Assembly (NCBI RefSeq): GCF_009914755.1
Contig: NC_060925.1
Source: the human T2T-CHM13v2.0 reference genome, Homo sapiens
Direction: 5' to 3' (one strand)
Length of the DNA stretch: 64,000 bases
Below are positions 6,020-14,135 of the stretch, one piece after another. Made by a program: the position numbers and the translations under genes. The notes beneath the pieces are model-generated. The model had not been told where the DNA came from. It saw only the letters and a list, made by a program, of their open reading frames with translations, and searched no databases. How positions within the stretch are numbered: position 1 is the stretch's first letter; the number at the start of each line of letters is the position of its first letter.

Positions 6020-6542
6020 ATTTCTTTTGAACTACAATTTGCATACAGTAAAAATGCATGGGTTTTAACTATCTCTGAGTGACTTCTATAACCAACTCAT
6101 TCAAAGTACAGAGCGCTTCCATTACTTTAGCAGTTTTCCTTTTGCTTATTTTCAGTCATTCTCCCTGAAAAGTAACCACTGCTGTAATTTCTTTTATCAT
6201 AAATTAGTTCCATTTGTTCTTGAACTTTATTTAAATTAAATCATAGAGTAGTATACTTTTTTATCTGAATTATTTTAATCACATCAATATTTTTTGAGCT
6301 ATATCTATAGTGGGTTATGCTTCTGTCATTTTTCCCTTTTATTGCAATGTAATATATCATTGCGTGCATATACCAAAATTTGTTTATTCACTCTCCTGTT
6401 CATGGACACTTGGGGTCTTTTGAATCTTGTGCTATGCACATTCTAATACAAATCTTTTGTATATATTGTATATGTTTCTATTTGGTGTTGTGGGCAAATG
6501 TATAAACAAAGAGTTGCTGGAGTATAAAGTAGTCTTATATTT
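6020..6542 (-). mobile_element. L1ME-like 3' fragment (left half of host element; resumes at 13900)
   Basis: L1M antisense motifs 'tttgtttattcactctcctgttcatggacacttgggg' and 'gagttgctgg', colinear with 13900-14135. Confidence 0.7.
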
Positions 6543-6567
6543 ATTTATTTGTTTGTTTTTATTTATT

Positions 6568-7255
6568 CTCATATTTGCCTTTCGTTGCTGGAATTCTCAA
6601 CTGATCTTCCTGGGATGCAATGGAGAAAGAAGCATGTTCTAATAACATATCTTCGAGGTTAGTTTACAAGGGTGTTTGCTTGTCAAAATCTTCCATTCAC
6701 TAAAATAAAACAGTTTGTGATGCATCTGAAAAAAGGCATGCCTACATTTTCTCTAATTGCTGGGTATCTTAACTTGTCTTAAAATGGCCTGATAAAGAAT
6801 CATGTTCCTGTAACATATTCTCAAGGTGAGCTTACAACAGTAATTTTTTTCAAACATTTTCATTCATTCAAACACAACAGGTTGTGATGAATCTTTAACA
6901 TGGTATGCTTACATTTGCTTTTTTTTGCTTCATATGTAAATTCATGGCATATGAACCAATATAGAAAGGAACATGTTCTAACGACACATTATCAATGTTT
7001 GCTTACAAAGGTTTTTCTCTGCCAAACACTTCCATTCACTGAAAGATATGAGTTTATGATGCATCCTAAAGAAAGCCTGCTTACATTTGCCTTTTATAGC
7101 TTTAATATATAAACCTGTGTAATATGAACAAATGGAGGAAAAAAACATGTTCTAATAACATATTTATAATGTTTGCTTGCACATTTTTTCTCTGAAAAAG
7201 CTTTCCATTCACTATTAGAAAACAGTTTATTATGCTTTATTATGCACTTCAAAAA
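6568..7255. repeat. Diverged tandem satellite, about four monomers of ~171 bp
   Basis: Anchor CATGTTC at 6633, 6801, 6972 and 7146 (spacing 168/171/174). Shared blocks include taacatat, gcttacaa, ttccattcact, gtttgtgatgcatc and tgcttacatttgc. Confidence 0.9.
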
Positions 7256-7618
7256 TATATTTTATGATGGATTCAAGGGGTACACGTGCAGACTTTGTTA
7301 CATGGATATATTGCTTAATGGTAAGGTTTGAGCTTCTAGTATACCCAACACCCAAAAAGTGAACATTGTACCTAATAGGTAATTTTTCAACCCTCAACCC
7401 CCTCCCAACTTCCCTTCTTTTGGTGTCCCCAGTGTCTGTTATCTCTTTATGTTTATGTGTACCCATTGTTTAGTTCCCACCTATAAGTGAGAACATGTGG
7501 TATGGTATTTGATTTTCTGTTTCTGAGTTATTTCACTTAGGATAATGGCCTTCAGCACCACTCATGTTGCAGCAAAGAACATGATTTCCTTCCTTTAATT
7601 ACTGCATTGTATTCCATG

Positions 7619-8515
7619 AAAAATATATATATTTATACATATATTTATATTTATATAAATATATAAAAATATATATAAATATATAAAAATATATATAAAA
7701 ATATAAAAATATTTATATAAATATATAAAAATATTTAAATATATAAAATATATATAAATATATAAAAATATATAAATATAAATATAAATATATAAAAATA
7801 TATATAAATATATAAATATATATTTATATAATTATATATTTATATAAATATATAAATATATATATAAATATATAAATATATATTTATATAAATATATAAA
7901 TATATAAATATATATTTATATAAATATATAAATATATAAATATATAAATATATATTTATATAAATATATAAATATATATTTATATAAATATATAAATATA
8001 TATAAAATATATAAATATATATTTATATAAATATATAAATATATATAAAATATATAAATATATATATTTTATATAAATATATAAATATATATAAAATATA
8101 TAAATATATATATTTTATATAAATATATAAATATATATAAAATATATAAATATATATATTTTATATATTTATATATATAAATACATATATTTCATATATC
8201 ACATATATGATACATATATGCAATACATCTATACATATAAATAATACATATATTTCATATAATGCATATTAATTATACATAGGTGTTATATATTTTATAA
8301 TATATAATTTGCATTATATATAACACATGTATTATATATGTTTATATATGAAATATATGTATTATATATTTTATATGTATTTCATGGAATACTATAATAC
8401 TATACCATACTATACTATGATACTACGCTATACTAAAATATATGTATAGGATACATATATTTCAAATATGTATTTCATATTTCATACATATATGAAATAT
8501 ATGTATCCTATATAC
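7619..8515. repeat. ~900-bp (TA)-derived AT-rich expansion inside the L1 3' region
   Basis: Near-pure A/T tract of atatataaat/atatattt units, followed by a degenerate TA-rich tract. Confidence 0.97.
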
Positions 8516-12400: not shown

Positions 12401-13368
12401 TAGGAGGGAATGGACCAGTAACAGGCTGGTCCCAACTCCACTGGGAGTTGCCCTCAGGCCCCCAGGGTTCAGGTGCCGGTTGTGGTAGGGAGGGGTGTGC
12501 TGGTCCCAAGGTCACCAACCATGCTTTCAGGTAGGTATAATCAGAATGCTCAGGCAGCAGCAGAATGCTCAGGCAGTGGGGGCCCCAGGGCTGTTCATGG
12601 GCTCATGGGAGCTGGGCTTTCAGAAGGACTCCCAGCCTCAGTTTAAATGATCATGCAGGAGCAGAGCAACTGTACTGTGGGCCTGTCAGTGGGGAAGGCA
12701 GATCCCCTCAGTGGGAGCAGTGGAGACAAGCAGCTGATGGGTGCGTGTCTCACTTGCACCTCCATCCCACAGGAGCAGTGGGGATATCCTTCATGGAGGT
12801 GTGTGAAGGTGTCCTGTCTCCCACTACTCCCCTGGCCCAGCAGCCATAGTGATGGCAGCAGCAATGGCAGAGGTAGCCTCAGGAGAGAATACAGGCCTCT
12901 AGGGCTTGGGTTCTCAGAAGGGCACTGGGCTGTAGCCAAAATCCTCAGGTGTGGGCAAGGTGGCTATGCTCCAGGACTAATTCTGGGGAGGGCAGGCCCC
13001 CTCAGCAGGATCTGTGGAGGCTGGAGCTGTGAGTCCCTTGGCATACTTGTGCTTCCCTCCTGCAGAAGCAGTAGTGTATTCTGCTATTAGAGTACATGAA
13101 GGTGCTCAGTCTTTTTGGTTCCTCTGTGGCCCAGTGGTAGCAATGGCAGCAGGAGCACTGACGGCAGTGGGAGCCCCAGGATAGACTGTAGGCCCCTGGG
13201 GCCTGGACTCTCAGAAGAATGCTGAGCTACAGCCAAATGCTCAGATGGGGGCAGGGTGGGAGCCAGTTGTGCTGTGGACTTGAGGCCAGGGAAGGTGGAC
13301 TCTGTCTAGTGGGAGGAGCAGAGGCAGCAGAACCATGGAAGTGCACTGTCTGCCTACTCCTCTTCTTG

Positions 13369-13398
13369 CAGCAGCAGCAGCAGCAGCAGCAGCAGCAG
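13369..13398 (+). repeat. (CAG)10 trinucleotide repeat inside the L1 5'UTR
   Basis: Read directly. Confidence 0.98.
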
Positions 13399-13899
13399 CA
13401 TTATCCATCTTTGGAGTGTGTGAAAGTGCTTCCTCTCCCCATTCCTTCCTTGGCAGTGGCAGTGGTGGTGGCAGCTGGCTCTGGGCTGTAGCTGCTCAGG
13501 GATCAAAATCCTGTGGGAGTCCACATGCACTCAAGCAGTGCCTCTGCACAGTCTCCAGGCAGCTCCCTGTGTTAGCCTAGAGGTCCAGGGGCACTTAGGG
13601 AGGTCTCTCATGACTAGAATTGTAAAGGTCTTTGGCAGAAGTGTGAAACCCCAGGAGTCTCTCACCTACTCATCCCTTCCCCATGTGAGGGAGCATCTCT
13701 TGGATCCTCGCTGCTCCCAGCCCAGCAGGCTGCCCAGCTCTGCTCTCCTCTGCTTTCTGTGATTCCTGTCACTTCTCTGTTGAATTCCAATGTCCTCTCA
13801 GAGATGATCTACCTGAAGTCTTAATATTTACTCACTGTTTGGATTCCTCTCCGTGAGGGCAGTACCCACTAGCTGCTTCTAGTCAACTTGCACCAGAAC

Positions 13900-14135
13900 T
13901 AGTTTTATATTTAAATTGAAAAGATATTACCACCGAGTTTTCCAGAAAGATTGTATCATTTTACTACCATATGAACAACATCATGGGAGTTATTCCATAT
14001 TTTCTCCATTTCCTTTAAAAGCCTTTTCATTTTAGCCATTTGAGTTGGTGTATAGGGGCATCTGGTAGTTGTTTTAATTTGTATTACTTTAATGACAAAT
14101 GCTGGAGAGCAACTTTTCTTTTGCTTATTGTTATT
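13900..14135 (-). mobile_element. L1ME-like fragment (right half of host element)
   Basis: 'gttttccagaaagattgtatcatttta...tttagccatttgagttggtgtataggggcatctggtagttgttttaatttgtatt'. Confidence 0.7.

What the first reader, a model, noticed from the sequence alone, without database searches (positions are those of the whole stretch)
6530..13912. Ancient L1 3' transduction carrying a ~171-bp satellite array
Seen in sequence: tagtcttatattt (6530-6542) recurs as tagttttatattt (13900-13912, one mismatch), followed by AA. That ATTT/AA junction resembles the L1 endonuclease site TTTT/AA. The flanks rejoin into one continuous L1ME-like element. Read on the minus strand, the insert is L1 5'UTR, ORF1, ORF2, 3'UTR, ~690 bp of tandem satellite, AATAAA (tttatt 6562-6567), an A-rich tail, then the TSD. 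Established: L1 read-through of its weak polyA signal produces 3' transductions with this layout. Inference: the donor L1PA16/17-like element sat in a satellite array and was active there, so this is a euchromatic fossil of that array dated to early primate evolution.
Basis: partly seen in the sequence, partly recalled or inferred. Interest (0 to 1): 0.85.

Follow-up and report, generated by a model that had tools for sequence, protein, structure and literature searches.

The report
Old L1 with tandem-repeat 3' extension
This is a decayed, roughly 60-90-million-year-old L1 jumping gene that carried four copies of a 172-base repeat at its tail when it inserted; about 60 other places in the genome hold the same repeat, so it is one member of an old family of L1 copies and has no sign of present function.

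Summary
A 5'-complete L1 lies on the minus strand (6543-13899) between 12-of-13 matching target-site duplications, nested in an older repeat. Its classical 3' end (about 7256) is followed by four ~172-nt tandem units (7252-6568) and a 25-nt A-rich tail.

Three points need correcting.
- **ORF2 is incomplete.** It has lost about 2 kb, including the reverse-transcriptase region, and is interrupted by an Alu and a 758-bp AT-rich repeat.
- **The extension is not unique.** The same unit occurs at about 59 other dispersed places.
- **It is not alpha satellite.**

In 10 of 36 sibling loci an L1 3' end sits directly upstream in the same orientation. Unit number runs from 0 to 4 behind visible L1 ends, and chr19:31.277-31.283 Mb holds about 17 units. 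Each unit ends in a ~39-nt module with AATAAA and the site where the A-tail starts.

Of the 39 closest L1 3' ends, 36 lack the extension, so it is not the normal 3'UTR. Best reading: graded read-through (3' transduction) from a source L1 beside a tandem array. That class of mechanism is known. Subfamily names, the donor locus and dating by other species could not be tested. Interest is modest.

The parts
5900..6529 (+). Left part of the older host repeat
   Evidence: 39 non-self matches at 67-87% identity elsewhere in the genome. It is colinear with the right flank in 6 of 58 related loci.
6530..6542 (.). Target-site duplication, 3' side of the L1
   Evidence: 12 of 13 identical to 13900-13912.
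6543..6567 (-). Degenerate A-rich tail of the insertion.
   Evidence: Read from sequence. It starts directly after the last base of unit 4.
6568..6740 (-). Unit 4, the last of the tandem 3' extension
   Evidence: Profile match 1-173. It is 18.5% diverged from the majority consensus. Its AATAAA has decayed to AACGAAA.
6741..6907 (-). Unit 3
   Evidence: Profile match 1-173. 25.1% diverged.
6908..7079 (-). Unit 2
   Evidence: Profile match 1-173. 16.3% diverged.
7080..7252 (-). Unit 1, next to the L1. Its start is shortened relative to sibling junctions and holds a 10-nt duplication at 7226-7245.
   Evidence: Profile match 10-173. TRF shows a period-10 repeat. Junction alignment.
7256..7622 (-). 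Classical L1 3' end (3'UTR)
   Evidence: 67-77% identical to L1 3' ends in sibling loci. One search aligns it to L099 across the junction.
7623..8380 (.). AT-rich simple or complex repeat inside the L1
   Evidence: TRF rows; sequence.
8400..9000 (-). Remnant of the C-terminal part of ORF2
   Evidence: Read-through translation. The assignment to the ORF2 C-terminus rests on my recall of L1 ORF2p, not on a library match.
9143..9441 (-). Younger Alu inserted into ORF2
   Evidence: Sequence (GGCTGGGCGCGGTGGCTCA... to an A-tail). The name Alu is from recall.
10083..10385 (-). N-terminal part of the ORF2 endonuclease
   Evidence: Pfam Exo_endo_phos, E 0.0009-0.0022, 18-19.5 bits, below the 24.5-bit cut-off.
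10601..11030 (-). ORF1 RNA-binding domain and C-terminal dsRBD-like domain
   Evidence: Pfam Transposase_22 at E 4e-21 and Tnp_22_dsRBD at E 1e-14.
11031..13899 (-). ORF1 N-terminal part and a long 5'UTR with (TGC)11 at 13368-13400. Not dissected further.
   Evidence: 5'UTR relatives: 39 non-self matches at 67-79% identity that begin at or near window 13899. TRF.
13900..13912 (.). Target-site duplication, 5' side of the L1
13913..14314 (+). Right part of the older host repeat
   Evidence: 39 non-self matches at 68-83% identity. Colinear with the left flank in related copies.

Best explanation
The element is one retrotransposed copy from an ancient source L1 that had a tandem array of ~173-nt units directly behind its own poly(A) signal.

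Each unit is about 134 nt of sequence found nowhere else, plus a ~39-nt end module. The module holds AATAAA, GGCAAATGTAAG and CATGCTTTCTTT, and the A-tail starts after it.

Transcripts that passed the L1's own signal ended at one of the unit-borne signals. Offspring therefore carry 0, 1, 2, 3, 4 or more units. The window copy ended just after the fourth unit.

It then inserted by target-primed reverse transcription at a TATATTT/AAATT site in an older repeat, which produced the 13-bp duplication. Later it lost about 2 kb of ORF2 and gained an Alu and an AT-rich repeat.

- **Shown:** the anatomy, the sibling loci, the shared junction, the end module, and the absence of the extension from most close L1 relatives.
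- **Inferred:** read-through as the cause, and a single source or few sources.
For: 1. **Dispersed siblings.** The array 6568-7255 matched the window plus 39 other places at 68-85% identity (45 matches; 59 candidates, 40 scored). add 13, 6 and 1 further places.
2. **L1 directly upstream.** In 10 of 36 sibling loci an L1 3' end lies no more than 260 nt upstream of the first unit in the same orientation. The junction aligns in 7 of 7 loci chosen for it.
3. **Ladder of unit number behind visible L1 ends.**
   - 0 units: L092-L095
   - 0.6-1.1 units: L016, L020, L011, L017, L099
   - 1.7-2.4 units: L004, L018, L008
   - 4 units: the window
4. **A-rich tails.** 12 of 36 loci have an A-rich stretch right after the last unit or module, against 195 of 2000 random positions.
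5. **Own poly(A) signal.** The majority consensus has AATAAA at 155-160 of 173.
6. **Not the normal 3' end.** 36 of 39 closest L1 3' ends stop at the classical terminus, 2 run through the module and 1 runs part way. In one search, 33 L1-only matches stop there, and the only match that spans the junction is the window.
7. **Units arrived already repeated.** Units within the window (61-71% identical) are no closer to each other than to units elsewhere (medians 67-74%; between-loci median 73.4%). They were alike at insertion and decayed independently afterwards.
8. **Mechanism in print.** Read-through of the weak L1 signal is described in passages of PMC4859970 and of preprint 10.1101/2021.07.12.451456.
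Against: - No donor was shown. The largest array (chr19:31277127-31283497, about 17 units) is only a candidate, and its upstream side was not seen.
- Proof that siblings are separate insertions is thin. An automatic search for exact flanking repeats of at least 10 nt found one credible case in 31 loci (L009, an 11-mer; 6 of 200 shuffles also gave one). A second hit (L017) lies inside the unit and is an artefact. One further A-rich 12-mer (L012) was seen only by eye.
- 26 of 36 sibling loci show no adjacent L1 end. They are probably 5'-truncated or cut by younger insertions, but this was not shown locus by locus.
- The L1-to-unit junction is not identical everywhere. L017 has about 20 extra nt and L011 about 130 extra nt before the first module.
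- Four loci end inside a unit, at profile position 107-119, with no canonical signal upstream.
- None of the window's four units keeps an intact AATAAA today.
Confidence: 0.6

Rival explanations
1. The units are a heritable variable-number tandem repeat in the 3'UTR of an active L1 sub-lineage. Offspring carrying units were themselves sources. Unit number changed by slippage, unequal exchange or alternative polyadenylation. No L1 ever sat in a pre-existing array.
For: - The end module of each unit is also the last ~39 nt of the 0-unit L1 copies, so part of every unit could be L1-derived.
- No independent long satellite was found.
- Junction variants (L017, L011) could mark sub-lineages.
- Tandem units in an L1 UTR have a precedent in mouse 5' monomers (PMC9022269, abstract seen).
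Against: - The extension is rare among close L1 relatives (2-3 of 39).
- L1 bodies with the extension are not closer to each other than to extension-free copies: 76-78% against 79-82% identity to L094.
- The ~134-nt remainder of the unit shows no match to the L1 3' end. The profile alignment to the one 0-unit copy that gave a hit (L094) starts at position 147.
- An A-run, like a former tail, separates the L1 from the extension.
Confidence: 0.27
2. One reading: a one-off 3' transduction of a piece of a true, alpha-like ~171-bp satellite, leaving a unique euchromatic fossil.
For: The period of 167-174 nt is close to 171. The layout and the target-site duplication fit a transduction.
Against: - About 59 other places carry the unit.
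- No similarity to a chr1 centromeric alpha-satellite sample: nhmmer with filters off found no hit at E up to 100, and the best blastn E-value was 0.41.
- The largest array is about 17 old units.
Confidence: 0.03
3. The repeat arose at this locus after insertion by local tandem duplication, or it is an unrelated tandem repeat that happens to lie next to the L1.
For: Tandem arrays often expand in place. The tail and duplication could in principle belong to another event.
Against: - The same units follow L1 3' ends at other chromosomes with the same junction.
- Units within the window are no more alike than units at different loci.
- The duplication brackets the L1 plus the units exactly.
Confidence: 0.02

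Closest known systems
L1 3' transduction and transduction families used to trace source elements
   Same: The L1's own signal is passed, flanking DNA is copied, a new tail follows, and a target-site duplication encloses everything. Siblings share the transduced sequence. The mechanism is described in passages of PMC4859970. Szak et al. 2003 was seen only as an entry in that paper's reference list.
   Different: Here the transduced DNA is a tandem array in which every unit carries its own poly(A) signal, so siblings form a ladder of 0 to at least 4 units. The family is old (units 10-25% from consensus). No donor has been identified.
AluSx-WaluSat: a satellite unit spread by TE transduction in T2T-CHM13
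   Same: A tandem-repeat unit was carried to new loci behind a retroelement. Passages of preprint 10.1101/2021.07.12.451456 were read. That study also lists 183 high-confidence L1 3' transductions.
   Different: The carrier there is an Alu, the unit is 64 nt, and later amplification was by segmental duplication.
SVA and mouse L1 5' monomers (tandem units inside a retrotransposon)
   Same: Both have a variable number of tandem units as a built-in part of a mobile element. Sources: PMC5753468 passage and PMC9022269 abstract.
   Different: Those units are internal or at the 5' end and do not end transcripts. Here the units are 3'-terminal, each carries a poly(A) signal, and most copies of the same L1 kind lack them.
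Alpha satellite (171-bp centromeric repeat)
   Same: Only the unit length is similar.
   Different: No sequence similarity to a chr1 centromere sample. The units are dispersed and lie in short arrays.

Membership tests
LINE-1 insertion by target-primed reverse transcription | ORF1 with L1 RNA-binding and C-terminal domains | tested here: met
   Transposase_22 at E 4e-21 and Tnp_22_dsRBD at E 1e-14, both on the minus strand.
LINE-1 insertion by target-primed reverse transcription | ORF2 with endonuclease and reverse transcriptase | tested here: not met
   The endonuclease match is only 18-19.5 bits, below the 24.5-bit cut-off. No RVT_1 match in any of three read-through frames. About 2 kb is missing by length accounting. 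The copy is a broken fossil; this does not argue against L1 origin.
LINE-1 insertion by target-primed reverse transcription | A-rich 3' tail, target-site duplication, T-rich/A nick site | tested here: met
   Tail at 6543-6567. Duplication 12 of 13 identical, with chance matches in 11 of 2000 shuffles and 3 of 802 real controls. The site reads TATATTT/AAATT.
L1 3' transduction | Non-L1 sequence lies between the L1 3' end and the final tail, inside the duplication | tested here: met
   The units at 6568-7252 lie between the L1 end and the tail. 36 of 39 closest L1 3' ends lack them.
L1 3' transduction | A downstream poly(A) signal in the extra sequence ends the transcript | tested here: inconclusive
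   The majority consensus has AATAAA at 155-160 of 173, and tails start 13 or about 25 nt after it in siblings. In the window's last unit the hexamer now reads AACGAA.
L1 3' transduction | A donor L1 whose genomic 3' flank is the transduced sequence | tested here: inconclusive
   The candidate array is at chr19:31277127-31283497.
Normal 3'UTR of the L1 subfamily | Present in most copies of the subfamily | tested here: not met
   Only 2 of 39 closest 3' ends run through the module and 1 runs part way. In one search, 33 L1-only matches end at the classical terminus.
Alpha satellite | Sequence similarity to the 171-bp alpha monomer | tested here: not met
   No nhmmer hit at E up to 100, and best blastn E-value 0.41, against 1.4 kb of chr1 centromeric alpha satellite. 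The sample's 340-nt dimer periodicity of 84% confirmed its identity.
Satellite DNA in the strict sense | A long, homogeneous tandem array independent of a mobile element | tested here: not met
   The longest array is about 17 units, interrupted, with units about 68% identical to each other. All other places hold 4 units or fewer.
Named subfamilies (L1PA16/17 for the insert, L1ME for the host) | Best match to that consensus in Dfam/Repbase | not testable with these tools
Pfam found nothing in the host flanks.

The most novel reading that the evidence does not exclude
The interrupted ~17-unit array at chr19:31.277-31.283 Mb is the fossil of the donor locus. On this reading a single 'hot' L1, active around or before the origin of primates, landed in or beside a small tandem array whose units each carried a poly(A) signal. 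It then produced on the order of a hundred offspring with a ladder of 0 to at least 4 units. That would make it one of the oldest L1 source loci traceable by its transduced tag, and a natural record of how often an L1 signal and successive downstream signals were skipped.
Probability: 0.25. Interest if true: 0.5.

Novelty: new member of a known kind. Interest (0 to 1): 0.3.

Why it matters
- **Function.** There is no sign of present function. It is a broken, intergenic or intronic fossil.
- **Annotation.** A ~172-nt tandem repeat in a chromosome arm is explained as cargo of an L1, not as a relic of a centromere-like satellite.
- **L1 history.** If the family comes from one source, the number of units per copy records how often successive poly(A) signals were skipped. 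The tag would also allow an ancient source locus to be traced, which is normally possible only for young L1s.
- **Prior description.** My five literature searches found no description of this unit or family. Dfam/RepeatMasker and the closed supplements of the T2T repeat preprint may already list it.

Tried and rejected
- **Intrinsic 3'UTR.** My first reading, was that the units are simply the normal 3'UTR of the subfamily. Searches overturned it, because most close L1 3' ends lack them.
- **Alpha-satellite relation.** Rejected.
- **Unit as a duplicate of the L1's own last ~170 nt.** Only the last ~27 nt of the unit plus its first 12 nt match the L1 copies. The profile alignment to the one 0-unit copy that gave a hit (L094) starts at position 147. 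The rest was compared by eye only and showed no convincing similarity.
- **Motif counts as a measure of family size.**
  - The 17-nt motif gave 14 exact matches, 64 with up to 1 mismatch and 660 with up to 2.
  - The tool's control (1 and 20 matches) is too low, because the reversed motif contains three CpGs.
  - My own uniform-composition estimate is about 18 and about 435 chance matches, so only the exact and 1-mismatch classes are informative.
  - All 14 exact matches lie in places seen to belong to the family. 13 were viewed; one is known only by coordinates.
  - From this I infer about 100-300 end modules genome-wide. This is a rough estimate.
- **Target-site duplications in siblings.** Largely unsuccessful: 1 credible case in 31 loci.
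- **Pfam on the host flanks.** No match in 6 frames.
- **Papers and earlier findings.**
  - The papers I tried to open under DOI 10.1101/gr.4001406 and under PMC1356131 and PMC156586 are not held. The first two identifiers were recalled from memory and may be wrong. The third came from a reference list seen.
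Full report
**What is in the window**

Bases 6530-6542 and 13900-13912 are 12-of-13 identical direct repeats. I compared the two 70-nt junction windows. A 13-mer with at most one mismatch appeared in 11 of 2000 shuffles, and in 3 of 802 real pairs of windows 7370 bp apart.

Between the repeats lies an L1 on the minus strand.
- **ORF1.** Pfam finds the ORF1 RNA-binding domain (E 4e-21) and the dsRBD-like C-terminal domain (E 1e-14).
- **ORF2.** Pfam gives a weak endonuclease start (18-19.5 bits, cut-off 24.5). 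It finds no reverse-transcriptase domain in any read-through frame.
- **Size of the loss.** By length, about 2 kb of ORF2 is missing.
- **Later insertions.** A well-preserved Alu (about 9143-9441) and a 758-bp AT-rich repeat (7623-8380) sit inside the element.
- **5' end.** It is complete. All 39 related 5'UTR copies begin at query position 44 or later. Many begin at 74-78 and four begin exactly at 62, which is window 13899.

Both flanks are old repeats, 67-87% identical to their relatives. Of the 58 related loci fetched, 6 hold both flanks in colinear order. In 4 of those 6 the spacing is what an uninterrupted element would give. The insertion therefore split one older repeat.

I could not test the names L1ME and L1PA16/17, because no repeat library was available and Pfam saw nothing in the host flanks.

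**The tandem array**

The classical L1 3' end runs to about 7256. It is followed by four units (7080-7252, 6908-7079, 6741-6907, 6568-6740), spaced 167-174 nt apart and 61-71% identical to each other. A 25-nt degenerate A-tail follows at 6543-6567.

**It is not unique**

- **Array search.** A search of the same genome with 6568-7255 gave 45 matches, namely the window and 39 other dispersed places, at 68-85% identity (59 candidates, 40 scored).
- **Further places.** A search with a chr19 array added 13 places. Exact matches to a 17-nt motif at the unit boundary added 6. One search added one more.
- **Sibling loci.** I held the sequence of 36 sibling loci.
  - In 10 of them an L1 3' end lies no more than 260 nt upstream of the first unit in the same orientation.
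  - In 12 of them an A-rich stretch follows the last unit, against 195 of 2000 random positions.
  - The other 26 show no adjacent L1 end. Several begin inside the array or are cut by Alus or young L1s, but I did not resolve each one.
- **Junction.** The L1-to-unit junction aligns across seven loci.

**What a unit is**

I built a profile from 29 near-complete units taken from 18 loci. Its majority consensus is 173 nt long, has no CpG, and has AATAAA at 155-160.

Four motif-selected loci (L092-L095) are L1 3' ends with no unit at all. After the classical terminus and an A-run they carry only a module of about 39 nt, followed by the A-tail. The module reads ...AATAAAAGGCAAATGTAAG CATGCTTTCTT. 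L096 has the same module but an Alu upstream.

The same module closes every unit. The architecture is therefore L1, module, then (about 134 nt plus module) repeated n times. Behind visible L1 ends n runs 0, about 1, about 2, and 4 in the window.

**Timing**

Units within the window are no more alike than units at different loci. Within the window they are 61-71% identical. The median against other loci is 67-74%, and the between-loci median is 73.4%. The units were therefore alike when they arrived and decayed independently afterwards.

Window units are 16-25% diverged from the majority consensus. The median for other units is 16.5%, with a range of 10-22%. By my own rough rate assumption this suggests an age of about 60-90 million years.

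**It is not the normal 3'UTR**

I queried with an L1 end plus the module. Of the 39 best non-self matches (5489 candidates), 36 stopped at the classical terminus, 2 ran through the module and 1 ran part way.

I then queried with an L1 end plus one unit. In that search 33 matches were L1-only and stopped at the terminus. The only match that spanned the junction was the window itself.

L1 bodies with the extension are no closer to the query (76-78%) than bodies without it (79-82%). The extension is thus a rare add-on to an abundant L1 kind. This overturned my first reading, that it was a subfamily-wide 3'UTR.

**It is not alpha satellite**

A 1.4-kb chr1 centromere sample showed the expected 340-nt dimer periodicity of 84%. 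It gave no profile hit at E up to 100, and the best blastn E-value was 0.41.

**Largest array**

chr19:31277127-31283497 holds a contiguous 1.7-kb run of about 10 units, plus four further pieces in the same orientation. That is about 17 units in all, cut by younger insertions. Its units are about 68% identical to each other. It is as old as the rest of the family and has not been homogenised.

It is a candidate donor locus.

**Mechanism**

Read-through of the weak L1 signal into flanking DNA is established (passages in PMC4859970, and in preprint 10.1101/2021.07.12.451456). That preprint also reports a satellite unit spread by an Alu transduction.

The simplest account here is a source L1 lying in or beside a small tandem array. 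Because every unit carries a signal, transcripts ended at graded points. The window copy ended 13 nt after the fourth unit's signal, as did L025. Most siblings end about 25 nt after the signal.

The main rival is a heritable tandem-repeat 3'UTR in an active sub-lineage. My data do not separate the two.

**Loose ends**

- Four loci end inside a unit, at profile position 107-119, after a second CATGTTTCTT-like motif and without a canonical signal.
- L017 and L011 carry extra sequence before the first module.
- Flanking duplications in siblings were recovered in only 1 of 31 loci by the automatic screen.

**Verdict**

The copy is one ordinary member of an old family, not a unique fossil of a satellite. 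The kind of event is known, and interest is modest.

Noticed in passing
G000 C19:31277127-31283497 (loci L098, L101): This is the largest array of the 173-nt unit in the genome. It has about 10 contiguous units plus four more pieces in the same orientation, cut by a short young L1 3' fragment and another younger repeat. It is a possible donor locus.
   Followed up: partly
window 7623-8380: A 758-bp AT-rich simple or complex repeat sits inside the L1 between the ORF2 remnant and the 3'UTR. It is much longer than typical microsatellites in such elements.
   Followed up: no
window 9143-9441 (minus strand): A well-preserved Alu with intact CpGs is inserted in ORF2, just upstream of the point where about 2 kb of ORF2 is missing. 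Short AAGAATA-like repeats flank it.
   Followed up: partly
window 13368-13400: A perfect (GCA)11 trinucleotide run (TGC on the L1 sense strand) lies in the long region upstream of ORF1. The span from the L1 5' end to the start of ORF2 is about 3.4 kb and was not dissected.
   Followed up: no
loci L007, L011, L015 (sibling loci): Another L1 3' end lies tail-to-tail, in inverted orientation, against the end of the unit array. This looks like later L1 insertions into the A-tail of the older copy.
   Followed up: partly
loci L004, L011, L016, L020: These copies end inside a unit, at profile position 107-119, after a second CATGTTTCTT-like motif, followed by A-rich sequence. No canonical AATAAA lies upstream. 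This is a second, unexplained termination point.
   Followed up: no
loci L010, L098, L100: The same younger interspersed repeat abuts or interrupts the unit array in 3 of the 36 sibling loci. One of its ends reads ...tggtttggctgtgt..cccacccaa.tctca... I could not name it.
   Followed up: no
(tool control): The pattern tool's control reads the motif backwards. For this motif that creates three CpGs, so the control undercounts chance matches in a CpG-poor genome: 1 and 20 found, against my estimate of about 18 and about 435.
   Followed up: yes
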